This document shows, piece after piece, positions 1 through 55,345 of a stretch of DNA of 64,000 nt; positions within the stretch are counted from its first letter, which is position 1; every line of letters starts with the position of its first letter. Source of the DNA: Squalus acanthias (lineage: Eukaryota); assembly GCA_030390025.1 (NCBI GenBank), contig CM059432.1, positions 63,180,001-63,244,000 on the forward strand. Reading direction: 5' to 3'. A program made the translations under genes and the position numbers. The notes below the pieces were generated by a model. It searched no databases. It was not told the origin of the DNA and saw nothing but the letters and a program-made list of their open reading frames with translations.

Positions 1-1008
1 CCACGATAGGGTTCCCCTTGTCCTCACCTTTCACCCCACCAGCCTCCACATTCAACGGATCATCCTCCGCCATTTCCGCCACCTCCAGCGTGATCCCACC
101 ACCAAACACATCTTCCCCTCACCTCCCCTTTCAGCATTCCGTAGGGACCGCTCCCTCCGCGACACCCTAGTCCACTCCTCTACCACCCCCAGCACCCCTT
201 CCCCTTCGCCCGGCACCTTCCCGTGCACGCGCAGGAGATGCAACACATGCCCTTATACCTCCCCTCTTCCCACTGTCCAGGGCCCCAAACACCCCTTCCA
301 GGTGAAACAGCGATTTACTTGTACTTCCTGCAATTTAGTATACTGTATTCGCTGCTCACGATGTGGACTCCTCTACATTGGGGAGACCAAACGCAGATTG
401 GGTGACCGCTTTGCGGAACACCTCCGTTCAGTCCGTAAGGGGGACCCCGAGCTCCCGGTGGCCTGTCACTTTAATTCACCGCTTCACTCCCACTCTGACC
501 TCACCGTCCTCGGCCTATTACACTGTTCCACAGAAGCTCAGCGTAAGCTCGAGGAACAGCACCTCATCTTTCGTTTAGGCACGCTACAGCCCTCTGGACT
601 CAATATCGAGTTCAACAATTTTAGATCATAACCTCAGCTCCAATCACATTTATATTTTATTTTATCCACCCTTTTATTTGTCCCCCCCACCTTTTTTTTT
701 TCCTCCTAGAAGCTGGCAGCTGTCCTTCATTCTGCCAGTGGATTTCACACTTCATTCAGCCTTAATCTGTCACATTAACACCACCTCTAGCCTTGCATAT
801 CTCTTAATGTCTCTTAATGTCTCTTCATCTTCCCCTTTGTTCCTTTATCCCCTCCCCCTTTTCCCAGCTTTACCCTGGCCTTAAATCTATTTGATTTCCG
901 GCTCTTCCCAGTTCTGATGAAAGGTCATCGACCTGAAACGTTAACTCTCTTTCTCTCTCCACGGATGCTGCCTGGCCTGCTGAGTTTTTCCAGCGTTTTC
1001 TGTTGTTA
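1..1008 (+). mobile_element. Penelope-like element 3' portion: GIY-YIG endonuclease C-terminus (ORF 302-631) plus 3' tail
   Basis: ORF reads FTCTSCNLVYCIRCSRCGLLYIGETKRRLGDRFAEHLRSV...EQHLIFRLGTLQPSGLN, the PLE-type GIY-YIG motif (VY..YIGET with CxxC insert). The same tail recurs at 6611-7559. Confidence 0.9.
910..946 (+). ncRNA. Minimal type I hammerhead ribozyme motif in the PLE tail
   Basis: AGTT-CTGATGA-A-AGGTC-atc-GACCT-GAAAC-GTT-AACT: CUGAUGA and GAAA cores, stem II AGGTC/GACCT, stem I AGTT/AACT, palindromic ACGT in place of stem III. Confidence 0.8.
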
Positions 1009-1009
1009 T

Positions 1010-1360: not shown

Positions 1361-2330
1361 TTGTCATGCAAGAGATAGTTACCCTGTAATATAAGTCAGG
1401 GTCAATGGCCACAATTTCGCCTACCTATGCGGGTCCGGTGAGGCCGGGGTCGGTGGTGGGGTGCGACCCTGCTGCTGGCTCCATCCCGCTCTGTGAAATG
1501 AATTTTACGCTGATTGGGCTTGTTAAGCCCGCCCAGCACGTTTCCCGGCCAATTAGAGAGAGCGGGTCTGATGATGTCACTTGATGAAGCATCATCAGCC
1601 AGTTTCCTTAAAGGGACCATACACAAATTGATTTTGACAGGTCTGGTGTCAGTGTTCTACAGCATTGAGGTGCTGCAAACACTGACAAGCACTGCACAGA
1701 GGTGCACGGCTGCACCCAGGCTCTCCCAGGACTCACTCCATATGCTTATGGAGGGTGTCATAGCACGCAGGCAGGTCCTCTTCCCTTGCCATGGGCGGAA
1801 GAGACCTCCTCAGGAGATCAGCACAGCCTGGTTGCACATTGCACAGGAGGGCACAAGCAGGGATGTCATCAGGAGGATCAGGCTGCAGTGGCACAAACCT
1901 TTCAATGATCTCAGTAGATCACGAAACGTTACTGCAAAGCCACAGTCAATCTCATCCTGCTGTGCCACTCATCACATCTCCATCACTCTGCCTTCCCTAC
2001 CCTACTCCTGCACATCCTTACTCACACCAACTTACCTTGCACCTCCACCCATCCCTCTTTATCTACATTATCACTTCCCCATCTCACTAGTCACCCCTCA
2101 CAATCACCCTCATTCTAGTCCAATCATACCAACTAACAACACACAAGGGTAGGCAATTGGGTGTTTTAGCCAATGTTCATGTGACGTTTCTGTTAATGTG
2201 CTATCAAACATTGAAATCTTTATTTTCAACACTTTGCGTTCTTGGACAGATTCGTGTGCACCTTTGGAAGTGGCTTAGTGAGTTGCAGTGAATGCTGAGA
2301 CATAACAGTACCCCCCACAATAGTCTTGAG

Positions 2331-3196
2331 CAGCGACCACGACACCACACAACCCTGCCACGGCAACCTCTGCAAGACATGCCAGATCATAAACACAGAC
2401 ACCATCATCACATGTGAGGACACCACCCACCAGGTACATGGTACATACTCATGTGACTCGGCCAACGTTGTCTACCTCATACGTTGCAGGAAAGGATGCC
2501 ACGGAGCACGGTACATCGGCGAGACCATGCAGACACTGAGACAACGTATGAACGAACACCACACAACAATCGCCAGGCAGGAGTGTTCCCTCCCAGTCGG
2601 GGAACACTTCAGCAGTCAAGGACATTCAGCCTCCGATCTTCGGGTAAGCGTTCTCCAAGGCGGCCTTCGAGACACACGACAACGCAAAATCGTCAAGCAG
2701 AAACTGATAGCCAAGTTCCGCACCCATGAGGACGGCCTCAACCGGGATCTTGGGTTCATGTCACGCTACATGTAACCCCACCTGACGTAGAGTCATCCAG
2801 ACTCGAGTCGTCGTTGGCTTGTTCTCTCGACACAGATGCGGCCAGACCTGCTGTGATTTCCAGCAAAAAAAAGTTTTTTGTTTTCCATACAGACCCCAGC
2901 ATCTGCCACAATTGACCCCTTGTGACCCCACCTCATTGTCTTTGATGTAATGTTTTCCTGACTGACCTGTTTGGATACCATCCAAACCTTTGATTGCCGT
3001 GATTATCTCTCTGCCGAGGTGTGATAAAGGGCAGTTAGAAAGATTAACTGTAATCATCTGGCAGTGTTCTCTGACTATATATGCTGTGCCTATATGCATC
3101 TCTTCACTTCACCTGACGAAGGAGCAGCGCTCCGAAAGCTTGTGATTTCAAATAAAGCTGTTGGACTATAACCTGGTGTTGTGCGACTTCTCACAT
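2331..3196 (+). mobile_element. Second Penelope-like family: GIY-YIG fragment (2326-2775) plus 3' tail
   Basis: CKTCQII...YSCDSANVVYLIRCRKGCHGARYIGETMQTLRQRMNEH...GLNRD; possible TTGAG TSD at 2326-2330 and 3197-3201. Confidence 0.88.
3109..3145 (+). ncRNA. Minimal hammerhead ribozyme motif of the second PLE family
   Basis: TCAC-CTGACGA-A-GGAGC-agc-GCTCC-GAAAG-CTT-GTGA: stem I TCAC/GTGA, stem II GGAGC/GCTCC, palindromic AAGCTT. Confidence 0.8.
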
Positions 3197-3826: not shown

Positions 3827-6547
3827 GGCCGCGAATTTTCACCTGGAGGCAGGATGGTGGTGGGTCCACTGTTCGGCGGGTTCCGGACCCGCTCCCGGTT
3901 CCTGCCGCCTTGCAGTTGAAATCTTCCGTTGATTGGCCTCGTTAAGGTCGACGTGCGGGTTCTCCAAGGCAATTGCTGGGTGTGGGTCAGCTGCTCGCGT
4001 CTGATGAAGCGATGTTGGACTGATTATTTAAAGGGGTCATGTTCCCTCTGCAGATTCATTTCCGTTTTGTTCCCTGAAGTGGCTGCTGCAGGTATGGCAG
4101 TGCCAAAACCTAAGGCTGCTCCCCGCTTCGACGCGGACTCCCTCCATGCAGGGAGGGAGTAAGAGGACGGAAGGAGGAGGCCTCCTCAGCATACCAAGGC
4201 AGCTTGGCTGCAAATAGTTGAGGAGGTCAGTTCGAGGTCAGTCTGCACACGCATCTATTGTAATCAGCAAAATTGAGTATAACATCACACTTACCTTCCA
4301 TCTGCCTCCCATCTCTTCTCACCCCCACACTCTGCATTGGCAACCTTCCCCTGCACATCCCAACTCACCCTAACATCCCTTGCACCCTCACCCATCCCTC
4401 TCTTTCTCTGTACAGAATCATGTCACCATCTTACTATGCACCACTCACACTCTTATGCAATGCCAACAACTAACAACGCACAGGGAGGGAACTTGGTTTG
4501 TGCACCTCACTCCTTCATAGCCTCGCTCTAAACATCTATGTCATTCATTCTTAACACTCACTCCATCAATCTCTCTCAAACTCCACTTGTGTCCCTCATT
4601 ACAGAAGAAGAAAGCCCACAATAAAAGGGAGAGGGGGAGGACAGGAGGAAGCCCACCATCCCTGGCGCGCCTAACGAGCGCTGAGGAGGCAGACCTGGAG
4701 ATTATCGGAGGTGCAGAGGAGTTGGAAGTGGGGGACAGAGAGACGGGCATAGAACAGCAAGCTGGTGACAGAATTGATTTCCAACCCTCTGATTTAGCAG
4801 TCATGAGTGACTAATATGGGAGATGATGTTCATAGAGATTGAGTACTGAGCATCTGCACAATGGGATGTGTCTGCAACATACATTTCACTTGTCTAACTC
4901 ATGCCTTTACTCCCCCACTCCCCGCTGTCCAGGAGGAAGAGCAGGAGCACTCCTCAGAGGAACCACCAGCCTCTGAGGGAGCAGCGTCACCAACATTCAG
5001 CACACCCAGCACCAGCGCAGAGACGCACACCTCGGTGGGTTTTGTGCGAGATAGAGTAGTGTTGTCACCTGGTGTATCACAGCTCACAAGTGAGCAGGAG
5101 CAGATGTTGGAGACAGGTATAGCAGTGGAGAGTCCTCGTCAGAGGATGCAGGGCGCTCCCAGCTCTGCTCAGCTGCATGTAGACGCTGAGCCTCTGGGGC
5201 CATCCAGAAAGGGAGCGGTGCTGGAGCTTCAGGAACAAGTGCAGGAGGCTCTGTGTGGATTTGCTTCCACGGTAACTGTGAGTGTGCAGAGACTGGAGGA
5301 GTCCATCTTAAACATTAGCAATGCCGTGTTGAACGCTATGGGCAATCTAGGTGCCACCATGGGAAGGATGGCAACCTCCATGGAGGACTTAACTCGCCAG
5401 ACGCAAGCCAACCTGGTGGCTCTTCTAGATATGGCAGCTATGGAGAATAGAAGGCCATCTATCGTGGAGAGGAACCAGAGGTACATGGACGTCTCGGTTA
5501 TGAGGACTGTCAGTACAGAGACGGGTCCTCATGGCCCCACCGATGTGCAGCAAGGTGCTCTCCAGCAACTTGCTAGCAGTGAAGTGCGGGTGACCCATGA
5601 GAGGGTCGGTGGTGTTCGAGCACAAGGAAGTGGGGGCTCCTCTCCAAGCGCTCACACTCCCTTGCCACTGCCGAGCCCTCGGTCAGAGCCCCATCTGCCT
5701 GAGCCAGCAGAGATGGCCGAGTCTGCCCCTGCACAGCCGCAGGAGGAGCAGACTTTGGCGGGGCCCTCCAAGGCTCCCAAAACCAGAGGACAGCCGCCAA
5801 AGGCGTCTAAGCAGGAGCAGCAGGGAAGTGAGTAGGCTGCCTCCACATATGCTGAAGCCACAGGGGTCTCACAACGTAGAAGCACGCGTAAGAGGAAGAT
5901 GTCACGTTAATAATCACAAGGGTTCTCACTTGGGTGTTATGATAGATTTATTTGTAAAGTTTCTGTTCTTTGCCAATATTGTAATAAATTGATGTAGAAC
6001 GAAGATTTGGCATCGTTGCCATATGTGTGCTGACAATTTGAGGTGGCACAGTTTAGGGTAAGTGTGCCTTTAAAATCCAGCAATGCAGGTTACAGTGGAT
6101 CGATAGTGCACAACACATACTTGCAGCCTAAACACAGAATATGCCCCCCAAATTATTCAATCACCAACCTGACAGATTTCATAATGACAAGATTTGAGAG
6201 TGCAGCTTTTACACTGCAGTTGCAGCTGTGAAGTCTCCAGCTCGCTGGTGTTCACGCCACACTTACCTGGCATGTTGTTGGAACGTCGTGAAACCCGACC
6301 CAGAAGCTGGAAAATCCAAAAACCCTGTGAAAATAGCTCTAAACTACCACTTAATAGGCAGTTAAATGCCTTTAATCCCTTTCCTGCTGCTTGGTGTCGG
6401 GTCCGTTTGCAAATCGGAGACCCGACATTCAGGAACGTTGCGTGGAGGTGGGATCACGGCAGGTTCGGAACCCGCCGTCAGTCATTGCAAATTTAACCTC
6501 TGACCCGCCTCCAATCCTGCACTCTGAGTGCCGGCAAAATTCTGGCC
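3827..6547 (+). mobile_element. Nested non-autonomous Harbinger element carrying a three-exon Myb/SANT-like gene and no transposase
   Basis: TIRs GGCCGCGAATTTT / AAAATTCTGGCC, flanks CTA/TTA; MAVPKPKAAPRFDADSL at 4094; exon 4605-4764 (KKKAHNKRERGRTGG..LTSAEE); long last exon to 5835. Confidence 0.75.
4094..5835 (+). pseudogene. Harbinger Myb/SANT-like (MADF/MSANTD-type) accessory gene; exon 1 internally deleted, last exon (4933-5835) open
   Basis: Motif similarity to the other copies in the window; acceptors ttacag (4604) and tgtccag (4932); ORF track 4861-5835 with acidic/Ser-rich and coiled-coil-like segments. Confidence 0.65.
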
Positions 6548-6673
6548 TTATCTAAAGGTGAGCTTAAAATAGTTTTTAAATGCTTGTTAACAAGCTCTTA
6601 ATAATCTAAAATAACAACAGAAAACGCTGGAAAAACTCAGCAGGCCAGGCAGCATCCGTGGAGAGAGAAAGAG

Positions 6674-6710
6674 AGTTGACGTTTCAGGTCGATGACCTTT
6701 CATCAGAACT
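6674..6710 (-). ncRNA. Hammerhead ribozyme motif, minus-strand copy with GUC site
   Basis: Plus strand AGTTGACGTTTCAGGTCGATGACCTTTCATCAGAACT is the reverse complement of AGTTCTGATGAAAGGTCATCGACCTGAAACGTCAACT. Confidence 0.8.
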
Positions 6711-7424
6711 GGGAAGAGCTGGAAATCAAATAGATTTAAGGCCAGGGTAAAGCTGGGAAAAGGGGGAGGGGATAAAGGAACAAAGGAGGAGATGAAGAGA
6801 CATTAAGAGACATTAAGAGATATGCAAGGCTAGAGGTGGTGTTAATGTAACAGATTAAGGCTGAATGAAGTGTGAAATCTACTGGCAGAATGAAGGACAG
6901 CTGCCAGCTTCTAGGAGGAAAAAAAAGGTGGGGGGGACAAATAAAAGGGTGGATGAAATAAAATATAAATGTGATTGGAGCTGAGGTTATGATCTAAAAT
7001 TGTTGAACTCGATATTGAGTCCAGAGGGCTGTAGCGTGCCTAAACGAAAGATGAGGTGCTGTTCCTCGAGCTTACGCTGAGCTTCCGAGGAACAGTGTAT
7101 TAGGCCGAGGACGGTGAGGTCAGAGTGGGAGTGAAGCGGTGAATTAAAGTGACAGGCCACCGGGAGCTCGGGGTCCCCCTTACGGACTGAACGGAGGTGT
7201 TCCGCAAAGCGGTCACCCAATCTGCGTTTGGCAGCTGTCCTTCATTCTGCCAGTAGATTTCACACTTCATTCAGCCTTAATCTGTTACATTAACACCACC
7301 TCTAGCCTTGCATATCTCTTAATGTCTCTTAATGTCTCTTCATCTCCTCCTTTGTTCCTTTATCCCCTCCCCCTTTTCCCAGCTTTACCCTGGCCTTAAA
7401 TCTATTTGATTTCCAGCTCTTCCC

Positions 7425-7461
7425 AGTTCTGATGAAAGGTCATCGACCTGAAACGTCAACT
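7425..7461 (+). ncRNA. Hammerhead ribozyme motif, plus-strand copy with GUC site
   Basis: AGTT-CTGATGA-A-AGGTC-atc-GACCT-GAAAC-GTC-AACT. Confidence 0.8.
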
Positions 7462-8179
7462 CTCTTTCTCTCTCCACGGATGCTGCCTGGCCTGCTGAGT
7501 TTTTCCAGCGTTTTCTGTTGTTATTTCGGATTTCCAGCATCTGCAGTATTTTGCTATCGTCTTAATAATCTAAACTGCCTCCCCAGCCGCTTGCTGTCGG
7601 CTCTGTTCAGCGATGACAGACCCGACATCTGGGAAACTAGCGTGGAGGTGGGTTGACAGCGGATTCCTTAACCTCTGTCAAAAAAATGTTTTTCCCAGCC
7701 GACCCGCCAACAAATGCGCCCGCTGACCCCCTGAAAAATCCCCCCCAATGTGTACACAGAGAACAGAACAGATACCTGTGGGTATTCACTTCCAACCACT
7801 CTGAGAAACTGCCCTTACCTTCCTTCTAACCACGTTTTAATCCAATTAGCTACACTTCCCCAATTCCATAGCCCTTACTCTTTTCTGTGTGGTACCTTGT
7901 CAAAGGCTTTCTGAAACGATGTGCAGCTATTATTGCTGCATTTCTTCATGGTAACAATTGATTTTTGTTCTTGATGTTATATATCCTGAGACATATTCAT
8001 TCATGTTATTCAGCTTTTTGGGAACACGAGGTGTATTCTGGATCGTAAAGAATGTACGAAAAAATTCTTAACACTGTTGAAAGGCTGTTGGTGATAACGC
8101 TCATATGCCAGAGATCTCTTGAGTGGATTTCGAATGTTGACTTTTTCGTTGTTACGTATGTGCTGTCTCATTTTTAAAA

Positions 8180-9319: not shown

Positions 9320-10700
9320 AATTTGATCCCTGAGTTTAAACTCAGGGTGGGTATCGGACGGGTGAGGGTGGAGGGGGGGGGGGGGGGTGCGGTGGGGGGG
9401 TGGTGGTGGCGAGGCGAGGGGCAAGTTCTCATGACATCACCAGCACGAGGCCCGGGTGATTTTGACTCCTGGTCCTCATTTTAATATGGTTGCTGGGCTG
9501 CCCACCTGGTGTTAGAAAATGGGCAGCCTGCCCACTTTCGTGGCACAATTTACGGCCGGCCTATTAAAAGTGGGATTGCACCTCTTAAAGCGAGGTTGCA
9601 TTCCCTGCTTTCAGATTTCTTGGCAACACTGTGGACAGAATGCTAAGGGCAGTACTGAGTCACAGAGCTGCCCCAGGTTTTCTAATGCCTCTGTAGAATT
9701 CCTGTTGCAGGAGTTCAGGGCAAGGAGGGATGTACTGTTTCCCAGCACCCACAGGAGCATCCTGAGGGAAACTATCCAGCAGGCCCGGGCAGAGGTGGGT
9801 GAGAGGGGCAGTGCCACCAGCATCACCCCCAGGACTTGGGTTCAATGTAGGAAACGCTTCGATTACTTCAAAAGAGCAGAAAGGATGAGTACAGTTCTAC
9901 ATCTCTCTATCTCTCTCAACACCTGCCAACACTCCTTTCACCCCCTCCCCCACCACTCTCTCTTCTCTATCACATCCTTCAACATACAATCACAAGGGCA
10001 CACTGCAACGCCTCTCTTCGTCATTCCAATAAGGATGTACCCAGAACGTAAGCTGAGGAAGGACCAGGCATGCTTTAAATAGGAGGATCCTGTTCCTGCA
10101 CCAGCAAAGTAATGAGCCACTTGGTTCCCTGCACGGCACGCTGGAAGGTTGCATCCAGCTCACTAACACCAAATGCCAACATTACGAATGCCATCATGAA
10201 AGCATTGTCAAGCTGAAGAATGCCATTCGCACCATGGCAATGCCAGTGCCATCTGTAGTGGAGACAGTGGGTACATGCAGGAATAGTGTAATAAGGGCCT
10301 CTCTCATGGATGCTTCTGCCACTGTCAATGTGCTACAAGTAACAATCAAAGACGTAACCGTTAACAGCTTTTACTAATTCAGAACAGATTGCAGTCAAGT
10401 ATTATGATGAGATTCAGGGACCATGTGGCAGAATACTCCTTTACTCTGCTTCAAGGTTTCCCCAGACACGTCTGCACCTTTTATGAAGACTCACCCTCAA
10501 AAAGTACCATTAATGCAGCACGACAATTGTCCCATATGTTCCCCATAATACGTTAGGGCCTTCAACTGCATATTGCTGCAGTAATTGTTGAGCTGTCAAG
10601 GTCATAGAGAAAGCATTCCAGCAGAATCCCAAAGAACTACTCAGCAGACTTTGCAACCCGCTCCACCACTTCCTCCCTCCATTAGAAGTTCAGGTAGAAA
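9320..10700 (+). mobile_element. Degenerate Harbinger derivative with Myb/SANT exon (~9640-9885)
   Basis: PRFSNASVEFLLQEFRARRDVLFP...RTWVQCRKRFDYFKR; GC-rich left end; boundaries approximate. Confidence 0.65.
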
Positions 10701-11804: not shown

Positions 11805-12510
11805 TTTTTAAATCTCAAACCTGACCCCAACCCGCCTCCAACCCACCCACATCTGGTTTTAACGGAGGCGGGGTGGGGGGTGGGGGGTTGTAGGCAGCCA
11901 ACCCGCTCCCAGGAGGCAGGTTGGGCACTTTAAATATTATAATGAGGCTGCGTGTCTCATATTTAACCTTCCTTCCAGGTTTATCCCTGGCCAGCCGGGT
12001 TTCCCGGGCCTCGGGAAACCCGGCAGCTAAAGGGAGGCGAGGACTGCTTCGTGGAAAAGGTAAGTGCCTTTACAGCACTGCTTATGGGGCAGGAGGAGCA
12101 GGAGTGCTTCCCCCTGGCCCTCCAAGCTTACCTTCTTCCCTGCCCACCATCGGCCACCCACCCTCCCCGCCCAATCCAAGGAATCCCCAGGCAATCGGAC
12201 ACCGCCCCCAGATCGGTGACCACCCACCCCCGAGATCGAGCCTCCCCAGGATCGGCGACCACCCCCACTATGATCCAGACCCACCCGCACGCTCCCACTA
12301 ACCCAGCTGCAAGGTCCCTATCTATTCCTGGCCTGCAGCCTCCTATGGAGCGTTCCCCACCTGACAGCAAGCCAAGCCTGTCAACCAGGCTGGCTTCTGG
12401 GCTGGGAACCTGCTTGAAAAAAAGACACACGATGTGACGTTAAAACTTCCTCCCTGGAACTGGTAGAAAGTTTTCCGGTGGCATTTAAATGAGGCCAGGG
12501 TGTTAAAATA
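11805..12510 (+). mobile_element. GC-rich Harbinger-type MITE, unexpanded sister of 12552-15840
   Basis: Shares AACCCGCCTCC..GGTTTTAACGGAGGCGGG..GCAGCCAACCCGCT.CCAGGAGGCAG and downstream blocks with 12620-12850. Confidence 0.6.
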
Positions 12511-12551
12511 CTCTGGGCCTCTTTTTGCTGCAACGTTTGAACTGACACCAA

Positions 12552-15500
12552 GGGGGGAATTTTAACCTAAAAAAACAGGTAGGTTTGGAGCGTGGGGATA
12601 GTTGAATTGTTAAAAATCGCAATCTCGACCTGAACCCGCCTCCGGTTTTAACGGAGGCGGGATGGGGGCGGGCAGCCAACCCGCTGCCAGGAGGCAGCAC
12701 GTTAATTTTAATATTATAATGAGGCTGAAGTCTCTTATTTAACCTACATTTTGTGTTTAACTGTAGCTGGTTGGGTTTTATACACTTCGTAAAACCCGAT
12801 AGTTACAGCAAGACGAGGACTACTGCATCCAGGAGGTAAGTACCTTTACACCTACTTCCTGGATCCAGGGTCCCTGCCTAACCCACCTCCCGTGATTAGA
12901 GACTCCCCCACAAGGCCTCCGATCACTCCCCCAGGCCTCCCCCTGCTCCAACCTCCGATCCACTTTGGACAGCCACCCCTCCACCCCCGATGTACTCCTG
13001 GGCTGACCTCCGATCTATTGCTGGGCCTCCCCCCCTCACCCCTCCCAATCTATTGCTGGGCTGACCCCGCTCCCACCACCAATCTATTACTGGGCTGACC
13101 CCCCTCCTCCCCCCAATATATTGCTGGGCCTCACCCACCCCCACCCCACCCGACTACCAAACTATTGCTGACCCCTCCCCCCCACCAATCCATTGCTGAC
13201 CCCTCCCCCCACCAATCCATTGCTGACCCCCCCCACCAATCCATTGCTGATCCCTCCCCCCCACCAATCCATTGCTGACCCCTCCCCCCACCAATCCATT
13301 GCTGATCCCTCCCCCCCCACCAATCCATTGCTGATCCCTCCCCCCCACCAATCCATTGCTGACCCCTCCCCCCCACCAATCCATTGCTGACCCCCCCTCC
13401 CCCCCACCAATCCATTGCTGACCCCCCCACCAATCCATTGCTGACCCCTCCCCCCCACCCCACCAATCCATTGCTGACCCCTCCCCTCCACCAATCCATT
13501 GCTGACCCCCCCTCCCTCCCACCAATCCATTGCTGACCCCCCCCACCAATCCATTGCTGACCCCTCCCCCCCACCCCACCAATCCATTGCTGACCCCTCC
13601 CCCCCACCAATCCATTGCTGACCCCCCCCACCAATCTATTGCTGACCCCTCCCCCCTACCCCACCAATCCATTGCTGACCCCCCCACGACCAATCCATTG
13701 CTGACCCCTCCCACCCCACCAATCCATTGCTGATCCCCCCCCACCAATCCATTGCTGACCCCCCCCCACCCCACCAATCCATTGCTGACCCCTCCCCCCC
13801 ACCAATCCATTGCTGACCCCTCCCCCCCACCAATCCATTGCTGACCCCCCCCACCAATCCATTGCTGACCCCCCCTCCCCCACACCAATCCATTGCTGAC
13901 ACCCCCCACCAATCCATTGCTGACCCCTCCCCCCCACCCCACCAATCCATTGCTGACCCCTCCCCCCCCACCAATCTATTGCTGACCCCTCCCCCCCACC
14001 CCACCAATCCATTGCTGACCCCTCCCCCCCACCAATCTATTGCTGACCCCTCCCCCCCACCCCACCAATCCATTGCTGACCCCCCCACGACCAATCCATT
14101 GCTGACCCCTCCCCCCCACCCCACCAATCCATTGCTGACCCCCCACCCCACCAATCCATTGCTGACCCCCCCCACGACCAATCCATTGCTGACCCCTCCC
14201 ACCTCACCAATCCATTGCTGACCACCCCCCCACCAATCTATTGCTGACCCCTCCCCCCCACCCCACCAATCCATTGCTGACCCCCCCCACGACCAATCCA
14301 TTGCTGACCCCTCCCACCCCACCAATCCATTGCTGATCCCCCCCCACCAATCTATTGCTGACCCCCCCACCCCACCAATCTATTGCTGACCCCTCCCACC
14401 CCACCAATCCATTGCTGACCCCCCCTCCCCCCCACCAATCCATTGCTGACCCCTCCCACCCCACCAATCCATTGCTGACCTCCCCTCCCCCCCCACCAAT
14501 CCATTGCTGATCCCCCCCCCCACCAATCCATTGCTGACCCCCCCACCCCACCAATCCATTGCTGACCCCCCCCACCCCACCAATCTATTGCTGATCCCCC
14601 TCCCCCCACCAATCCATTGCTGATCCCCCTCCCCCCCACCAATCCATTGCTGACCCCCCTCCCCCCACCAATCTATTGCTGACCCCCCTCCCCCCCACCA
14701 ATCCATTGCTGACCTCCCCACCAATCCATTGCTGACCCCCCCACCCCACCAATCCATTGCTGACCCCCCCTCCCCCCCACCAATCCATTGCTGACCCCCC
14801 CACCAATCCATTGCTGACCCCCCCCACCAATCCATTGCTGATCCCTCTCCCCCCACCAATCCATTGCTGATCCCTCCCCCCCCACCAATCCATTGCTGAC
14901 CCCTCCCCACCAATCCATTGCTGTCCCCCCCCCACCAATCCATTGCTGATCCCTCCCCCCCCACCAATCCATTGCTGTCCCCCCCCACCAATCCATTGCT
15001 GTCCCCCCCACCAATCCATTGCTGACCCCTCCCCCCCACCAATCCATTGCTGTCCCCCCCCACCAATCCATTGCTGACCCCCCCACCCCACCAATCCATT
15101 GCTGACCCCCCCACCCCACCAATCCATTGCTGACCCCCCCCACCCCACCAATCCATTGCTGACCCCCCCCCACCCCACCAATCCATTGCTGACCCCCCCA
15201 CCCCACTAATCCATTGCTGACCCCCCCACCCCACCAATCCATTGCTGACCTCCCCTCCCCCCCACCAATCTATTGCTGACCTCCCCTCCCCCCCACCAAT
15301 CCATTGCTGACCTCCCCTCCCCCCCACCAATCCATTGCTGACCTCCCCTCCCCCCCACCAATCCATTGCTGACCTCCCCTCCCCCCCACCAATCCATTGC
15401 TGACCCCTCCCCCCCACCAATCCATTGCTGACCCCCCCACCAATCTATTGCTGACCCCTCCCCCCCACCAGTCCATTGCTGGCCTCTCCCCCCCACCAAT

Positions 15501-15840
15501 CTATTGCTGACCCTGCCCCCCCACCAATCTATTGCTGGGCCGACCTCCCCCTCTGATCTATTGCTGGGCTGACCCCTACGCAAACCTTCCCTCCCTCCTC
15601 GCTGTGGCCTAGTGCTGCAGGCCTACTGCCTGGAGCCAGCCATCATCTCAATCTGGCTGGCTGCGGATGGGAAAAAGAGGCCTCGCATGCAAACCAGGCC
15701 CTGCCGTTAAAGTCAGCAGGGCCTGCAGGAAACCTGTGATCCCAGGGAGCCCCCCCCCACCGCCCCCAACCCGCCTTCCCCATGAAAATCCAGCCCCAAA
15801 ACGCAAGCCAAAAATTGTCCCTCAGTTAAAATCAGGGCCC
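12552..15840 (+). mobile_element. Harbinger-type MITE containing an expanded minisatellite
   Basis: Starts GGGGGGAATTTTAAC, ends GTTAAAATCAGGGCCC; homologous to 11805-12510 outside the array. Confidence 0.6.
13160..15540. repeat. Minisatellite of roughly 80 units of ~25-33 bp: CCACCAATC(C/T)ATTGCTGA plus a variable C-tract
   Basis: Directly visible tandem array; extreme C/G strand skew; unit count estimated from length. Confidence 0.97.
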
Positions 15841-15959
15841 GAGTGGCAGCATAAGCTTTGTTTTATCTGTTTTGTGCCTGGATTTGAGGGTGATGTTTAG
15901 GTGTCATGAACTGCAATTGCAGAAGATGGCATGGTCACCTAGAAACCAGCCTTCCAGCC

Positions 15960-16340
15960 TGTCCTCCCCTTAAAAGATTTGCAACACATTGCTTTGCTTC
16001 ATGACGCAGGCATTATGAGCACTGCCGGGGTCATGTGGATATATGTACATGATTTTGAGACAGTGGTTGCCGACCATCTGCACAGTCATGCAACAGAATT
16101 CCTTTCTATTGAGGTACGAGATTACACCAAGCCCTGATGCCCAGATGGCCACCATGTGTTCAGTTTATTGCGCCTTGCACTCTGGGAAAGCAAGTATGTG
16201 CATAAAATTGAGTACCTCTTTCCTGATACTGCTGATGGTTATTGGCGAATTGGATAAAGATGTGATGCTGAAAGAGGGTATTTGTGACCGCTGTGCTACT
16301 GTGCTGGACATGATGACAGGCTTACACCCAATATATACCG
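15960..16340 (-). pseudogene. HARBI1-like Harbinger transposase fragment
   Basis: LNRKEFCCMTVQMVGNHCLKIMYIYPHDPGSAHNACVMKQS matches the family pattern NRKGFHSLNVQ..CD......PGS.HD..IL..S. Confidence 0.7.
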
Positions 16341-36980: not shown

Positions 36981-37690
36981 CGTATAAAATGAGGCCCCCT
37001 CCCAGGAAAACGAGATGAGTTTCCAGCTCTGTATAGTTGAATGGCGGAACAGGCTGGAGAGGCTGAACGGCCTACTTCTGTTCCTATGTTTCTATGTCAC
37101 ATGGGTGGGTGGAAGTTTCACCTCGCCGCATTTCTGGTGAGTGGAAGAAAATCCAGTCCTTACTCTGTCTCTGACCGTCAGCTGGACTATGAGTGAAAAT
37201 GATCTACACTTTAACAGTGGTCACATTGTAAGTGATAATGTAGTGGAAAACCATGTACCAGTTAAATGACAGACTTTCTGAGAACAGTATTGTTGTGCAA
37301 CATCAGATTTGTCAAGATGCTGAAAGCAAATTTTAAGTACATCAAAGGTCGCCTTAATCATACTCTCGGCAAACTGGTGCTCCTCATTATACTTAATTAG
37401 AACACAGGAAAGTATGGAATGAAAAAAGTCAATTGGATCCATTAAGCCTGGGTCTCCACAGACCATGTACAATATACTTTATCAAAAATAGAAAAAGCTG
37501 GAAACACAACATATCAGTCAGCATCTGTGGACAGAATAGACAGTATTTTGCTTTTTCTTTATCACAGACTCTATTTTTTCCATCTAAACTAGTGAGGGAA
37601 TATTCTGCATAAATATTTCCTAATCACTAAGTCGCAGATGATGTGGATACAGTTTTAGGGGATGCTTTTCCTCAGGGGTTCTCCTGATTG

Positions 37691-39728: not shown

Positions 39729-41575
39729 GGGGGAAAAATTGGGTTGATTTGCGCCTCTCGTTAAATCATCTAGCGCCCGGGCACGGCGCCGCTAATGCCT
39801 CCCGCGATATTCAGCGGGAGGTTAGCGTCGGAGATAGCTGGTAGCGCCTCGCGGCGCTGCACCGCCGGCGATGACATCATCGCCATGCGCAGCGCCCTGG
39901 TCGCAAACTTCCCTTGTGCCTCCTGACCTATCACCGAACGATATGTCCGACAGGGTCAGGGGGCGTTTTTGCAGTGGCGGCAGCGGTAGTTAAAGGGGCA
40001 GGTGTCGGGTGGCCATTTTTTTTTGGCCGACTGCCAGCACCTTTTTTTTTATTCGTTCACGGGATGTGGGCGTCGTTGGCAAGGCCAGCATTTATTGCCC
40101 ATCCGTCATTGCCCTTGAGAATGTGGTGGTGAGCCACCTTCTTGAACTGCTGCAGTCCGTGTGGTGAAGGTACTCCCACAGTGCTGTTAGGGAGGAAGTT
40201 CTAGGATTTTGACCCAGCGACGATGAAGGAACGGCGATATACTTCCAAGTCAGGATGGTGTGTGACTTGGAGGGGAATTTGGAGGTGATGGCGTTCCCAT
40301 GCGCCTGCTGCCCTTGTCCTTCTAGGTGGTAGCGGTCGCAGGTTTGGGAGGTGCTGCTGAAGAAGCCTTGTTGAGTTGCTGCAGTGCATCTTTAGATGGT
40401 AGATACTGCAGCCACGGTACACCGGTGGTGGAGGGAGTGAATGTTTAAGGTGGTGGATGGGGTGCCAATCAACGGGCTTCTTTGTCTTGGATGGTGTTGA
40501 GCTTCTTGAGTGTCATTGGAGTGGCACTCATCCAGGCAAGTGAAGAGTATTCCATCACACTCCTGACTTGTGCCTTGTAGATGGTGGAAAGGCTTTGGGG
40601 AGTCAGAAGGTAAGACACTCGCTGCAGAATACCCAGCCTCTGACCTGCTCTTGTTGCCACAGTATTTATGTGGCTGGTCCAGTTAAGTTTCTGGTCAATG
40701 GTGATCCCCAGGATATTGATGGTGGGGGATTCGGCCATGGTAATGCTGTTGAATGTCAAGGGGCGGTGGTTAGACGCTCGTTTGTTGGAGATAGTCATTG
40801 CCTGGCACTTGTGTGGCGCGAATATTACCTGCCACTTACCAGCCCAAGTCTGAATGTCATCCAGGTCTTGCTGCATGCGGGGATGGACTGCTTCATTATC
40901 TGAGGAGTTGCGAATGGCACTGAACACTGTGCAGTCATCTGCGAACATCCCCACTTCTGACCTTATGATGGAGGGAAGGTCATTGGTGAAGCAGCAGAAG
41001 ATGGTTGGGCCTAGGACACTGCCTTGAGGAACTCCTGCAGCGATGTCCTGGGGCTGTGATGATTGACCTCCAATCACCACAACCAACTTCCTTTGTGCTA
41101 GGTATGATTCCAGCCAGTGGAGAGTTTTCCCCCGATTACCATTGACTTCAGTTTTACTAGGGCTCCTTGATGCTACACTCGGTCAAATGCTGCCCCTTTT
41201 CCCTTTTTTTTCGTGATGCCGGCCGGGATCGCTCAGCCCGGCACTCCTCTTGCGTGCCGGGCTGTTTTCACGGCACCCCGCTCCAGCAGGGCCCCGGTGC
41301 GTGCAGCGCTAGGCCCCTCCCCTTTAATCAGGGGAGGAGGCCTGCAATGACGTGGTGCTATGTGCCTACACGCGTGGCGCTGTTGCACGTAGCGCTGCGA
41401 TCTTCAGTAGTAGCGCCCCAAGAAGGAGGTGGAGCACTTCCAGTAGCGCCCCACCTCCTGCTTGGGGTGCTACTGCTGAAATTCCGGCAGAGCGGTGCTA
41501 ACTTTTTTGGGACACTAACATTAGTGCCCCGGCGATGTTGGCGCCCCAAAAGGGACGCCACCCAATTTTTCCCCC
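39729..41575. mobile_element. GC-rich Harbinger-type MITE interrupted by a CR1
   Basis: TIRs GGGGGAAAAATTGGGT / ACCCAATTTTTCCCCC. Confidence 0.8.
40050..41193 (-). mobile_element. CR1-type LINE (family B) RT C-terminus and 3' end
   Basis: GVPQGSVLGPTIF..NDLP..MFADD..WQVIFAPHKCQ..LSTIYKAQVRSVMEY; inserted at a T-tract. Confidence 0.9.
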
Positions 41576-49259: not shown

Positions 49260-50186
49260 GACCTCCTCTGAGGAGTCGTCGTCCGTGACCTGGACCACCT
49301 CCTGTGGGACGTGTGAAGGCCCTGTGGGAGATAAAAGACATGAATGAGTACTGTCAAGGTAAGAATGCTTGAAGCTATCATTAGGCATATGATCATATTT
49401 CACTCGCTGTTGACATCAAGTCAACATGAGCGATTGTTGTATGCCATGTGGCTGTCTGATATTTAATTGTGTCATCAGGTAGCTGGGAGGTCCCCATCTC
49501 CCCATCTCCCCATCTCTGATGATCAGGCAGGCCCAGACTCCGCTGATTTCAAGCGCTCGCTCCTTTGCACTTGTTAGCTTTGAGATGGCTGAGGGCCACC
49601 TCCAGTTCTCTGCCTCTCCTTCATGTTCTGTGCTCTCTTCTCCTGCTGGGAGGGAAAGAAGAGACCTCTGAGTGAGAGTAATGGCATGTGTGGGACAGAT
49701 GGATGGAGAGCATTTATTGAAGGTGACTATGAGGGAGAGGCATGACATTGCATAAGGATGAGGGTGAGTGTCAATGGTGGATGGACAGATGACGATGTGA
49801 GGAAGTGCACAGATAGAGAGGGATCGGTGTACCTGCAAGGTAAGTTGGTGTGAGGAGTGATGTTCTGGAGAAGGCTTCAGAAGACAGAGGGAGGGGTTGG
49901 GGTGATACGCATATCAGGATGTAGGTGAATGCACCATTGCTCTCACCTTTCCTGCCCTGCTTAGGTCATTGAATCATTTCCTGCATTGTATCCAGGAGTG
50001 TGGCACCACACACCTGCTGCTGACCTCTTGTACCACCTCCAACCATGCCTTCTTGGTCTCCCCAGCTGGCTTCTTCCTCCCGTTGCTAGGGAACACTATA
50101 TGCCTCCGGGTCCGCACAGTCCCCAGCAGCACATCCAGGGAGGGGTTGCTGAAATGAGGTGCAGCCTTTGACCTTTTGGATCCCAT
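49260..50186 (-). pseudogene. Harbinger Myb/SANT-like gene, spliced, degenerate
   Basis: KAAPHFSNPSLDVLLGTVRTRRHIVFP..KKAWLEVVQEVSSRCVVPHSWIQCRK*FNDL; donor (ctcac on plus) at ~49942-49946. Confidence 0.75.
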
Positions 50187-50209
50187 TCTGGCACTTCCTT
50201 CTCTTTGGC

Positions 50210-52914
50210 TCCCAAAGGAGGGGGTGTCGCAATATTAATCAAGGAGTCAATTACTGCTGTAAGGAGGGATGATATCTTAGCAGGTTCCTCTAATGAGGCC
50301 ATATGGGTAGAACTTAAAAACAAAAAGGGGGCAAGCACTTTGCTGGGAGTGTACTATAGGCCCCCAAACAGTCAGGGGGAGATAGAGGAACAGATATGCA
50401 GGCAAATCTCAGAGAAGTGTAGAAATAATAGGGTAATAATAGTAGGGGATTTCAACTTCCCCAATATTAACTGGGATAGTCAGAGTGTGAAAGGCTTAGA
50501 GGGTGTGAAATTCTTAAAGTGCATCCAGGAGAGCTTTTTGAGCCAGCATGTAGAAAGTCCTACAAGAGAGGGGGCGGTACTGGACCTAATTCTAGGGAAT
50601 GTAGCCAGGCAAGTGGTAGAAGTGTTAGTAGGAGAGCATTTTGGTGACAGTGACCATAATTCGGTGAGATTTAAGGTAGTCATGGAAAAGGACAAAGATG
50701 GACCGGAAATAAAGGTTCTAAATTGGGGGAAGGCCGATTTTAATATGATAAGGCAGGATCTGGCCAAAGTGGACTGGGATCAGCTACTTGTAGGAAAATC
50801 CACATCAGAGCAGTGGGAGTCTTTCAGAAAGGAAATAGAGAGAGTACAATGGCAACATGTTCCCGTAAAGGTCAAGGGTGGGACCAACAAGCCCAGGGAA
50901 CCCTGGATGTCAAGGGATATACGAGAATGGAGTAGGAAAAAAAGGGAGGCTTTTGGCAGATACAAAGGACTAAAAACTGTGGAAGCCCTATAGGAGTATA
51001 GAAAGTGCAGGGAGGTACTTAAAAAAGAAATTAGAAGAGCGAAGAGGGGGCATGAAATAACACTGGCGGGCAAAATAAAGGAAAATCCCAAGGTGTTTTA
51101 TAAGTATATTAAGGGCAAGAGGATAACCAGGGAAAGAGTAGGGCCCATTAGGGACAAAGTGGCAATCTGTGTGTAGAGCCAGAAGATGTAGGTGGGGTTT
51201 TAAATGAATATTTTGCATCTGTGTTCACTATGAAGAAGGACGATGTAGGCATAGAAATCAGACAGGGGGATTGTGATATACTTGAACAAATTAGCATTGA
51301 GAGGGAGGAGGTACTAACGGTTTTAGCGGGCTTAAAAGTGGATAAATCCCCAGGCCCAGACGAGATGTATCCCAGGCTGCTGTGTGAGGCAAGGGAGGAG
51401 ATTGCAGAGGCTCTGACACAAATTTTCAGAACCTCTCTGGCCACAGGGGAGGTGCCAGAGGACTGGAGAACAGCTAATGTAGTATCATTATTCAAGAAGG
51501 GTAGTAGGGATAAACCAAGGAATTACAGGCCAGTGAGCCTAACATCAGTGGTAGGGAAATTATTGGAAAAAATTCTGAGGGACAGAATTAGTCTCCACTT
51601 GGAGAGGCAAGGATTAATCAAGGATAGTCAGCATGGCTTTGTCAGGGGGAGATCATGTCTGACCAATTTGATTGAATTTTTCGAGGGGGTGACTAGGTGT
51701 GTGGATGAGGGTAGTGCAGTTGATGTGGTCCACATGGACTTCAGTAAGGCTTTTGACAAAGTCCCGCATGGGAGACTGGTCAAGAAGGTAAGAGCCCATG
51801 GGATCCAGGGCAACTTGGCACATTGGATCCAAAATTGGCTTAGTGGCAGGAGGCAGAGGGTGATGGTTGAAGGTTGTTTTTGTGACTGGAAGCCTGTGTC
51901 CAGTGGTGTACCGCAGGGATCGGTGCTGGGTCCTTTGCTGTTTGTAGTGTACATTAATGATTTAGATATGAATGTAGGAGGTATGATCAGTAAGTTCGCA
52001 GATGACACAAAAATTGGTGGGGTGGTAAATAGCGAGGAGGAAAGCCTCAGGCTACAGGATGATATAGATGGGTTGGTCAGATGGGCAGAACAGTGGCAAA
52101 TGGAATTTAACCCTGAAAAGTGTGAGGTGATGCATTTTGGGAGGACTAACAAGGCAAGGGAATACACAATGAATGGTAGGACCCTAGGAAGGACAGAGGA
52201 TCAGAGGGACCTTGGTGTGCATGTACATAGATCCCTGAAGGCAGCAGGACAGGTAGATAAGGTGGTTAAGAAGGCATATGGGATACTTGCCTTCATTAGC
52301 CGAGGCATAGAATATAAGAGCAGGGAGGTTATGATGGAGCTGTACAAAACGCTAGTTAGGCCACAGCTGGAATACTGTGTGCAGTTCTGGTTGCCACACT
52401 ATAGGAAGGATGTGATTGCATTGGAGAGGGTGCAGAGGAGATTCACCAGAATGTTACCTGGGCTGCAGCGCTTCAGCTATGAAGAGAGACTGGACAGGCT
52501 GGGGTTGTTTTCCTTAGAGCAGAGAAGGCTGAGGGGGGACCTGATTGAGGTGTACAAAATTATGAGGGGCATAGATAAGGTAGATAGAAATGAACTTTTC
52601 CCCTTAGTAGAGGGGTTAATAACAAGGGGGCATAGTTTCAAGGTAAGGGGCAGGAGGTTTAGAGGGGATTTGAGGAAAAACTTTTTCACCCAGAGGGTGG
52701 TTGGAATCTGGAACTCACTGCCTGAAAGGGTGGTAGAGGCAGGAACCCTCACAACATTCAAGAAGCATTTAGATGAGCGCTTGAAACGCCATAGCATACA
52801 AGGCTCTGGACCAAGGGCTGGAAAATGGGATTAGAATAGACAGGGCTTGATGGCCGGCGCGGACACGATGGCCGGAAGGGCCTCTTTCTGTGCTGTTTAA
52901 CTCTATGACCCTAT
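50210..52914 (+). mobile_element. Young CR1 LINE covering most of ORF2 (APE endonuclease plus RT) and the 3' tail
   Basis: GGGVAIL, YRPP, VGDFN, LDL, SDH (APE); NYRPVSL, DFSKAFD, PQGSVLGP, FADD (RT, 51221-52834); one TAG at 50991 and one frameshift near 51155; (CTATGA)-type tail. Confidence 0.96.
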
Positions 52915-54154: not shown

Positions 54155-55345
54155 GAGTACACACTGCAGCCACGGTAAGCCGGTGGTGGACGAAGTGAAT
54201 GTTTAGTTTTGTGGATGGGGTGCCAATCAAGCGGGCTGCTTTGTCCTGGATAGTGTTGAGCTTCTTGAGTGTTGTTGAAGCTGCACTCATCCAGGCAAGT
54301 GGAGAATATTTCATCACACTCCTTACTTGTGCCTTGCTTTGGGGAGGCAGGAGGTGACACACTCACCGCAGAATACCTAGCCTCTGGCCTGCTCTTGTTG
54401 CCACAGTATTTATGTGGCTGGTCCAGTTAAGTTTCTGGTCAATGGTGACCCCCAGGATATTGATGGTGGGGGATTCGGCGATGGTAATGCCGTTGAATGT
54501 CAAGGGGCGGTGGTTAGACTCTTAATTGTTGGAGATAGTCATTGCCTGGCACTTCTGTGGCGCGAATGTTACCTTTCACTTATCAGCCCAAGCCTGAACG
54601 TCTTCCAGGTCTTGTTGCATGCGGGCAGGGACTGCTTCATTATCTGAGGAGTTGTGAATGGCGCTGAACACTGTGCAGTCATCAGCGAACATCCCCATTT
54701 CTGACCTTATGTTGGAGAGAAGGTCATTGATGAAGCAGCTGAAGATGGTTGGGCCTAGGACACTGCCCTGAGGAACTCCTGCATCGATGTCCTGAGGCTG
54801 TGATGATTGACCTTCAACCACCACAACCATCTTCCTTTGTGCTAGGTATGACTCCAGCCAGTGGAGAGTTTTCCCCCCGATTCCCATTGACTTCAGTTTT
54901 ACTAGGGCTCCTTGATGCCACACCTGGTCAAATGCTGCCTTGATGTCAAGGGCAGTCACTCTCACCTCACCTCTGGAATTCAGCTCCTTTGTCCATGTTT
55001 GAACCAAGGCTATAATGAGGTCGGGAGCCGAGTGGTCTTGGCAGAACCCAAACTGGGCATCAGTGATCAGGTTATTGGTGAGTAAGTGCTGCTTGATAGC
55101 ACTGTCGATGACACCTTCCATGTCTGATGATTGAGAGTAGACTGATGGGGCAGTAATTGGCCGGATTGGATTTGTCCTGCTTTTTGTGGACAGGACGTAC
55201 TTGGGCAGTTTTCCACATTGTTGGATAGATGCCAGTGTTGTAGCTGTACTGGAACAGCTTGGCTAGAGGCACGGCTAGTTCTGGAGCACAAGTCTTCAGC
55301 ACGACAGCCGGGATGTTCCACTCGGCATTTCTGGGAACATACACT
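54155..55345 (-). mobile_element. CR1-type LINE (family B) RT fragment
   Basis: ANYCPISLL; QFGF; ALDIKAAFDQVWHQG; GVPQGSVLGP; MFADD. Confidence 0.9.

What the first reader, a model, noticed from the sequence alone, without database searches (positions are those of the whole stretch)
910..946. Hammerhead ribozyme hidden in a Penelope element tail
Seen: complete CUGAUGA / stem II / GAAAC-GUH / stem I architecture downstream of a GIY-YIG ORF, with stem III reduced to the palindrome ACGU. Known: PLEs carry minimal type I hammerheads that are proposed to cleave as dimers. Inference: this family processes its own RNA. This copy has GUU at the cleavage triplet whereas the copies at 6674 and 7425 have GUC, giving a natural pair of variants.
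Basis: partly seen in the sequence, partly recalled or inferred. Interest (0 to 1): 0.7.

Follow-up and report, generated by a model that had tools for sequence, protein, structure and literature searches.

The report
Known-type hammerhead in shark Penelope tail
The motif is a real minimal hammerhead ribozyme at the tail of a Penelope-like jumping gene in a shark-like genome, a kind described in 2014, and its GUU cut site is the usual form in this family, not an oddity.

Summary
The hammerhead at 910-946 is real. It has a full core, an extra A after position 9, a 5-bp stem II, a 4-bp stem I and ACGU in place of helix III. It lies 283 nt behind a GIY-YIG ORF whose best relatives are elasmobranch proteins. 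A strict descriptor gives 4 hits in the window and 0 in 100 resamples; related loci carry the core on the sense strand in 28 of 59 cases and never antisense. This is the published minimal hammerhead of Penelope-like elements.

The 'natural pair' needs correcting. The copies at 6674 and 7425 are two arms of one fold-back insertion with a 15-bp target duplication. U17 carries 94-100% of contig depth in four runs, so GUC is the minority form; U17 occurs in 24 of 56 published motifs.

Cleavage is untested. Insertions end about 67-102 nt past the cut site, so their templates were intact there. The scan has noted this motif kind before, here and in other genomes.

The parts
2..631 (+). 3' end of the PLE ORF (open at the window edge): linker with CX4CxxC zinc-finger-like motif and GIY-YIG endonuclease
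   Evidence: relatives P0003 and P0017 carry RT plus GIY-YIG
632..909 (+). 3' untranslated part of the element (pseudo-LTR), pyrimidine-rich
   Evidence: shared at about 98% with the copy at 6611-7231
910..946 (+). minimal type I hammerhead, U17 form; predicted cut after 942; A10.1-U11.1 pair (922 with 934)
947..1009 (+). element sequence past the cut site up to the 3' end of this insertion, followed by AT-rich flank
   Evidence: the same end point clusters in contigs (table 7)
6596..6610 (+). left copy of the 15-bp target-site duplication
   Evidence: the 15-mer occurs twice in the window, here and at 7560
6611..7231 (-). long arm of a head-to-head insertion (5'-truncated at element position 387), hammerhead with C17 at 6710-6674, no tail extension
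7229..7559 (+). short arm of the same insertion (starts at element position 714; 3-bp overlap with the other arm), hammerhead with C17 at 7425-7461, plus a 33-35 nt tail extension
   Evidence: 298 nt identical between arms
7560..7574 (+). right copy of the 15-bp target-site duplication
2299..2775 (+). 3' end of a second, distant PLE family (GIY-YIG; 36% identical to the first over 139 aa)
2777..2907 (+). decayed hammerhead-plus-tail module related to the 910 family; core boxes damaged, stem II intact with different letters
   Evidence: local alignment and fold
3109..3145 (+). second intact minimal hammerhead of another family: AGCU palindrome, U17, G10.1-C11.1

Best explanation
A genuine minimal hammerhead in the 3' pseudo-LTR of a young, high-copy, Neptune-type Penelope-like retrotransposon of a shark or ray. 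Shown here: the anatomy, its place and strand, covarying stems in relatives, the fold-back insertion, U17 as the majority form. Inferred mechanism: in tandem transcripts of master elements two motifs pair through their ACGU palindromes and exchanged stem I arms to form a double hammerhead, probably helped by the element's own protein, and cut slowly after position 17 to trim the precursor. Reverse transcription starts at two sites about 70 and 98 nt downstream of the cut site on RNA that is intact across it, so each insertion carries a whole hammerhead as a passenger. The copy at 910 has no usable partner in view, and the C17 pair would be locked in a 298-bp duplex in any transcript that spans both arms.
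For: Descriptor 4 hits vs 0 in 100 resamples. Core alone, no stems demanded: 28 of 59 related loci sense, 0 antisense; both stems of 3 bp or more in 22 of 28, against 10% (stem II) and 5% (stem I) after shuffling; 8 different stem II and 15 different stem I end triplets (many loci belong to one coral-type family, so these are not 28 independent events). GIY-YIG and RT-bearing relatives. Target duplication and identical arms, the layout described in PMC8557442 and PMC3846280. Loose ends cluster at 7526, 7527 and 7555 (69, 96, 151 contigs in X1), like the two RT start sites of PMC11167929. T at position 17: 94.2, 95.9, 100 and 99.6% of depth.
Against: No cleavage was measured. The predicted double-hammerhead fold is 4.7 (U17) and 8.1 (C17) kcal/mol less stable than two trapped monomers. 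The 10.1-11.1 pair is A-U, against G-C in 26 of 28 related loci. Within the family the motif is not clearly more conserved than the tail: 3 of 37 vs 10 of 98 variable sites, p = 1; only after dropping the CpG and position 17 is it 0 of 34, one-sided p = 0.045 (a post hoc choice). No row marks 7457/7458 among the loose ends shown (18 of 389 rows). No Rfam match. The upstream tandem pseudo-LTR and RT lie outside the window.
Confidence: 0.65

Rival explanations
1. The motif is hammerhead-derived but does not cut to any useful extent in this family; it is kept as part of a protein-binding or promoter structure, or simply rides along.
For: A-U at 10.1-11.1, 4-bp AU-rich stem I and a predicted core-trapping hairpin; all three local copies run through the cut site; cleavage was dispensable for insertion in vitro and no reads ended at the site in the anole element (PMC11167929); Naiad elements thrive without canonical hammerheads (PMC8557442).
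Against: Every catalytic core base is intact, no other letter reaches 3% of depth at 7425-7453 in any of 4 runs, and distant families keep core and stems with different letters. The anole motif did cut when protein was added, and C3/G8 swaps partly rescued it.
Confidence: 0.2
2. Cleavage followed by ligation makes a unit-length RNA circle; reverse transcription starting just downstream of the resealed junction gives copies that run through an intact hammerhead and can exceed one unit.
For: Explains 3' ends beyond the cut site equally well; proposed in PMC4209133.
Against: No circle was looked for here; unprocessed RNA was the dominant substrate in vitro (PMC11167929).
Confidence: 0.12
3. This copy has been taken over by the host as a regulatory ribozyme, and U17 is a tuned allele at this locus.
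For: Core and stems are intact.
Against: The copy is about 98% identical to its neighbour, all 6 differences in 296 nt are transitions, and U17 is the family majority. Nothing singles this locus out.
Confidence: 0.02
4. Chance match to a short consensus.
For: The loose pattern alone is reached by 3 of 100 shuffles; no Rfam hit.
Against: 0 in 100 resamples with stems, 0 of 1180 shuffled flanks; strict strand and position bias in relatives.
Confidence: 0.01

Closest known systems
Minimal hammerheads (min-HHR) of metazoan Penelope-like elements, Cervera and De la Pena 2014, PMC4209133 (read: parts 1-2 of 4 of the main text, parts 1-2 of 3 of supplement file 2; file 1 could not be searched)
   Same: CUGANGA and GAAA cores, an extra base between 9 and 10.1, 4-bp helix I, palindromic 15-16 with no helix III, position in the pseudo-LTR behind a GIY-YIG ORF, U17 or C17, opposite-strand pairs of motifs.
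   Different: A-U at 10.1-11.1 (3 of 56 published rows by my count; consensus is G-C). No cartilaginous fish among the 56 rows.
PAc, Poseidon-type PLE of Anolis carolinensis, Frangieh et al. 2024, PMC11167929 (read: parts 1-2 of 4)
   Same: Hammerhead upstream of two clustered 3' end sites that define an optional tail; AT-rich targets.
   Different: This family has the CX4CxxC linker of the Neptune/Nematis type, which Poseidon lacks; nothing here was tested biochemically.
Neptune clade EN+ PLEs and their inverted insertions (PMC8557442 and PMC3846280, passages read)
   Same: Zinc-finger-like linker before a C-terminal GIY-YIG, head-to-head 5'-truncated copy, 30-40 bp tail on one arm, target duplication.
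   Different: Target duplication is 15 bp against 8-10 bp in the rotifer examples; clade not confirmed by an RT tree.
Non-LTR retrozymes of animals (bioRxiv 10.64898/2026.07.22.740005; read: part 1 of 5, section 12, passages)
   Same: Type I hammerheads derived from PLE pseudo-LTRs; reported in one chondrichthyan genome.
   Different: Retrozymes are non-coding tandem arrays; this copy has coding sequence and is not tandem in the window.

Membership tests
min-HHR of metazoan PLEs | Core CUGANGA, GAAA and NUH triplet intact | tested here: met
   914-920, 935-938, 940-942
min-HHR of metazoan PLEs | Helix I and helix II present, with an unpaired base between 9 and 10.1 | tested here: met
   4 bp and 5 bp, A921; stems covary in relatives
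min-HHR of metazoan PLEs | No own helix III; palindromic 15.1-16.1 | tested here: met
   ACGU at 938-941
min-HHR of metazoan PLEs | G10.1-C11.1 pair (consensus feature, above 80% in the paper, not invariant) | tested here: not met
   A922-U934; no other letter at 3% of depth in 4 runs. A-U also stands in 3 of the paper's own 56 members, so this marks a minority type and does not exclude membership.
min-HHR of metazoan PLEs | Sense strand, in the pseudo-LTR behind a PLE ORF | tested here: met
   283 nt behind the stop at 631
min-HHR of metazoan PLEs | Self-cleavage as dimer or with protein | not testable with these tools
   Only contigs were available, which cannot show RNA ends
EN+ Penelope-like elements | C-terminal GIY-YIG endonuclease | tested here: met
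   PF01541; C121, H140, H156 invariant in 22 aligned relatives; reading them as the CCHH motif is my inference
EN+ Penelope-like elements | RT domain in the same ORF | tested here: inconclusive
   The window begins inside the ORF; relatives at 70% and 49% identity carry RT upstream
EN+ Penelope-like elements | Inverted 5'-truncated copy, one-sided 30-40 bp tail, target duplication | tested here: met
   6596-7574
EN+ Penelope-like elements | Partial tandem with a 5' pseudo-LTR | not testable with these tools
   5' part lies outside the window and no genome is held
Neptune clade | CX2-5CxxC linker between RT and EN | tested here: met
   C75, C80, C83 of P0001; shared with Nematis
Neptune clade | Placement in an RT phylogeny | not tested
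   No RT in the window; no reference set in hand
Rfam hammerhead families | Covariance model score | tested here: not met
   No match at gathering score or at E up to 10; that these models expect a helix III is recalled
Non-LTR retrozyme | Non-coding head-to-tail tandem units, each with a hammerhead | tested here: not met
   Coding sequence attached; no tandem unit in the window

The most novel reading that the evidence does not exclude
Position 17 works as a folding switch in PLE hammerheads. Core bases U4-G8 can pair with C15.2-A1.1 and extend stem II into an inactive hairpin. C17 locks it (G5-17 pair probability 0.99 vs 0.83 in the 37-mer; gap to the active dimer 8.1 vs 4.7 kcal/mol), so this family kept the chemically slower U17 because it opens the core, and the element's protein acts by melting this hairpin. 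A minority GUC subfamily would then be slower, not faster, without protein. Support is thermodynamic modelling only; with 30-100 nt of flank the U17 copy was predicted to fold differently again.
Probability: 0.12. Interest if true: 0.5.

Novelty: new member of a known kind. Interest (0 to 1): 0.15.

Why it matters
As it stands it adds one more family to a described class, and little else. What PLE hammerheads do in the cell is still open (PMC8557442, PMC11167929). A young, abundant vertebrate family with a majority U17 and a minority C17 form, and a specific predicted inhibitory fold, is a convenient test case for why these motifs need a partner or a protein to cut.

Tried and rejected
Rfam at gathering and at E up to 10: no hammerhead match. 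No whole genome is held, so copy number and per-copy counts could not be made. An exact degenerate pattern in metagenome contigs found 0; the protein profile found nothing in viral contigs. Lunse, Weinberg and Breaker (RNA Biol 14:1499), the key paper on dimer cleavage, is not held; I saw only its citation and a summary in the review PMC6765202 (passages), so it may already cover U17, A-U pairs or sharks. Contig depth along the stretch (higher over the hammerhead and tail) was not used: depth is one figure per contig. Stronger conservation of the motif than the tail was not established. The remnant at 37484-37544 starts near the cut site, but I saw no hammerhead upstream of it and it is only 75% alike, so it was not taken as evidence of a cleaved template. 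Searches for sharks with Penelope and ribozyme, for Penelope/Neptune in cartilaginous fish and for an inhibitory fold in PLE hammerheads listed nothing on this family; I saw listings only. No measured U17 or A10.1-U11.1 rate was found: PMC3138052 passages say GUC and GUA are the fastest triplets and list GUU as active; that U17 and non-G-C 10.1-11.1 pairs are slower is recalled.

Full report
Observation. Stem I is 910-913 with 943-946, the first core box is 914-920, an unpaired A follows at 921, stem II is 922-926 with 930-934, GAAA is 935-938, the palindrome ACGU is 938-941, and residue 17 is U942. The loose pattern occurs 3 times in the window against 0.48 expected, which 3 of 100 shuffles reach. 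With both stems required there are 4 hits and none in 100 Markov resamples. Rfam does not detect it.

The element. The ORF at 2-631 is open at the window edge and scores as GIY-YIG. Among 36 longer relatives found, the 7 best are 59-70% identical and come from sharks and rays. Two that I scanned carry RT upstream of the endonuclease. A CX4CxxC linker precedes the endonuclease, which PMC8557442 gives as the mark of Neptune and Nematis elements. The bioRxiv survey found Neptune and Poseidon as the vertebrate groups. Neptune is therefore the likely clade, by inference and without an RT tree.

Is the structure selected? I fetched 80 loci that encode relatives (the best 80 of 493). Of these, 59 had at least 300 nt downstream and 21 were too short. 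Asking only for the core boxes, 28 of 59 have one on the sense strand 73-168 nt behind the endonuclease and none on the antisense strand. Both stems reach 3 bp in 22 of 28, against 10% for stem II and 5% for stem I after shuffling, and the stem letters differ between families. About half of the loci belong to one family that matches the published Acropora motif, so the independent cases are fewer than 28. Within the shark family itself, extra conservation of the motif over the tail is not established: 3 of 37 against 10 of 98 variable sites, or 0 of 34 after a post hoc removal of the CpG and position 17 (p = 0.045).

The GUU/GUC pair. The copies at 6674 and 7425 are arms of one head-to-head insertion. 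They are identical over 298 nt, meet at a 3-bp overlap, and are flanked by a 15-bp duplication at 6596 and 7560 that occurs nowhere else in the window. One arm has a 33-35 nt extension. This is the layout described for Penelope-like elements. The comparison is thus one insertion against one insertion, which differ at 6 of 296 sites, all transitions. Laying contigs of four runs on the GUC arm, T at position 17 carries 94.2% of depth in X1 (DNA, possibly the source sample), 95.9% in X14 (guessed RNA, same organism), 100% in X7 (3 contigs) and 99.6% in X10 (13 contigs). Depth is not copy number and the set includes subfamilies down to 85% identity, but the direction is plain: GUU is the norm and GUC is at most a few per cent. 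In the 56 published motifs I count 25 C, 24 U, 6 A and 1 G at position 17; Takifugu with C and Tetraodon with U are already such a pair. The related loci lean the other way (16 C, 4 A, 2 U of 22).

The pair at 10.1-11.1 is A-U. It is G-C in 26 of 28 related loci and never A-U, and A-U in 3 of 56 published rows. The predicted most stable fold of the monomer is not the hammerhead: core bases U4-G8 pair with C15.2-A1.1 (-9.5 kcal/mol with C17, -7.3 with U17, against -5.9 for stems I and II alone). The double hammerhead lies 8.1 and 4.7 kcal/mol above two such monomers. Some core pairing of this kind has probability above 0.5 in 13 of 21 distinct motifs from the related loci (a loose measure). U17 also lengthens the palindrome to six bases, which could draw A14 into a non-productive pair, so its net effect cannot be predicted. 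Two more motifs lie nearby: an intact one of another family at 3109-3145 and a decayed module at 2777-2907.

Mechanism. Shown: all three local copies run 67-102 nt past the cut site, and contig ends cluster at 7526, 7527 and 7555 with mixed AT-rich flanks (69, 96 and 151 contigs in X1). That matches the two internal RT start sites found for the anole element. Earlier notes of this scan report a Tx1 element that inserts at a fixed site in Penelope tails of this genome (unchecked), which could add to such clusters; the low agreement of the flanks (0.37-0.44) argues against one inserted sequence. The templates were therefore uncut at this motif, or cut and resealed. Inferred: cutting happens, slowly, in tandem precursors of master elements through a double hammerhead, probably with help from the element's protein, as in the anole element, where it was protein-assisted and not needed for insertion in vitro. 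In this window no partner is in view. The motif at 3109 has a different palindrome, and a fold of 6596-7575 puts the whole motif at 7425 in the inter-arm duplex.

Comparison and verdict. It works like, and meets the structural definition of, the minimal hammerheads of Cervera and De la Pena 2014, with a minority closing pair. Activity is untested. No cartilaginous fish is among their 56 rows, and my searches listed no paper on this family, but a 2026 preprint reports PLE-derived hammerhead repeats in one chondrichthyan, the 2017 dimer paper could not be read, and one supplement file was not searchable. The scan has recorded the same kind of motif and fold-back insertion several times. New member of a known kind; interest 0.15.

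Noticed in passing
window 3109-3145 (+): Intact minimal hammerhead of another family (AGCU palindrome, U17, G-C closing pair) with AATAAA just behind it; may be the proper motif of the GIY-YIG element at 2299-2775.
   Followed up: partly
window 2777-2907 (+): Decayed hammerhead-plus-tail module of the 910 type sitting directly behind the stop codon of the second, distant PLE family; looks like one family's tail inserted into another's 3' end. It begins at the 5' edge of its hammerhead.
   Followed up: partly
window 7410-7427 and 895-912: A pyrimidine run ending in CAG overlaps the 5' arm of stem I and resembles a splice acceptor; in Drosophila virilis Penelope an intron ends at the same structural place. 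Loose ends cluster before 7423-7426 (173 and 72 contigs in X1). Relatives lack the AG, so this may be chance.
   Followed up: no
window 7462-7559 (+): The tail is predicted to form a long stem-loop, and its central part is about 80% alike between the 910 family and the module at 2822-2864; candidate RT recognition structure.
   Followed up: partly
window 7444-7445: The CpG at the stem II loop shows no variant at 3% of depth, while four of the other five CpGs in the laid stretch do (5-62%). Unexplained.
   Followed up: no
window 37484-37544 (-): Old remnant of the tail, 75% alike, with no hammerhead seen upstream.
   Followed up: partly
L002:792, L012:513, L025:2140 (- strand): Related loci with a second hammerhead on the opposite strand upstream of the endonuclease, the same head-to-head layout as in the window.
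   Followed up: no
window 50172-52834 (+), 40469-41182 (-), 54576-55262 (-): LINE-type AP endonuclease and RT fragments.
   Followed up: no
window 9516-10082 (+): Myb/SANT-like domain (PF13873), as found in PIF/Harbinger elements (that link is recalled); similar-looking sequence flanks the hammerhead copies at 1200-2200 and 4100-5900.
   Followed up: no
window 12000-16000: Strongly C-skewed, GC-rich stretch (GC skew -0.47 to -0.64) with overlapping open frames; the two frames scanned had no Pfam match.
   Followed up: no
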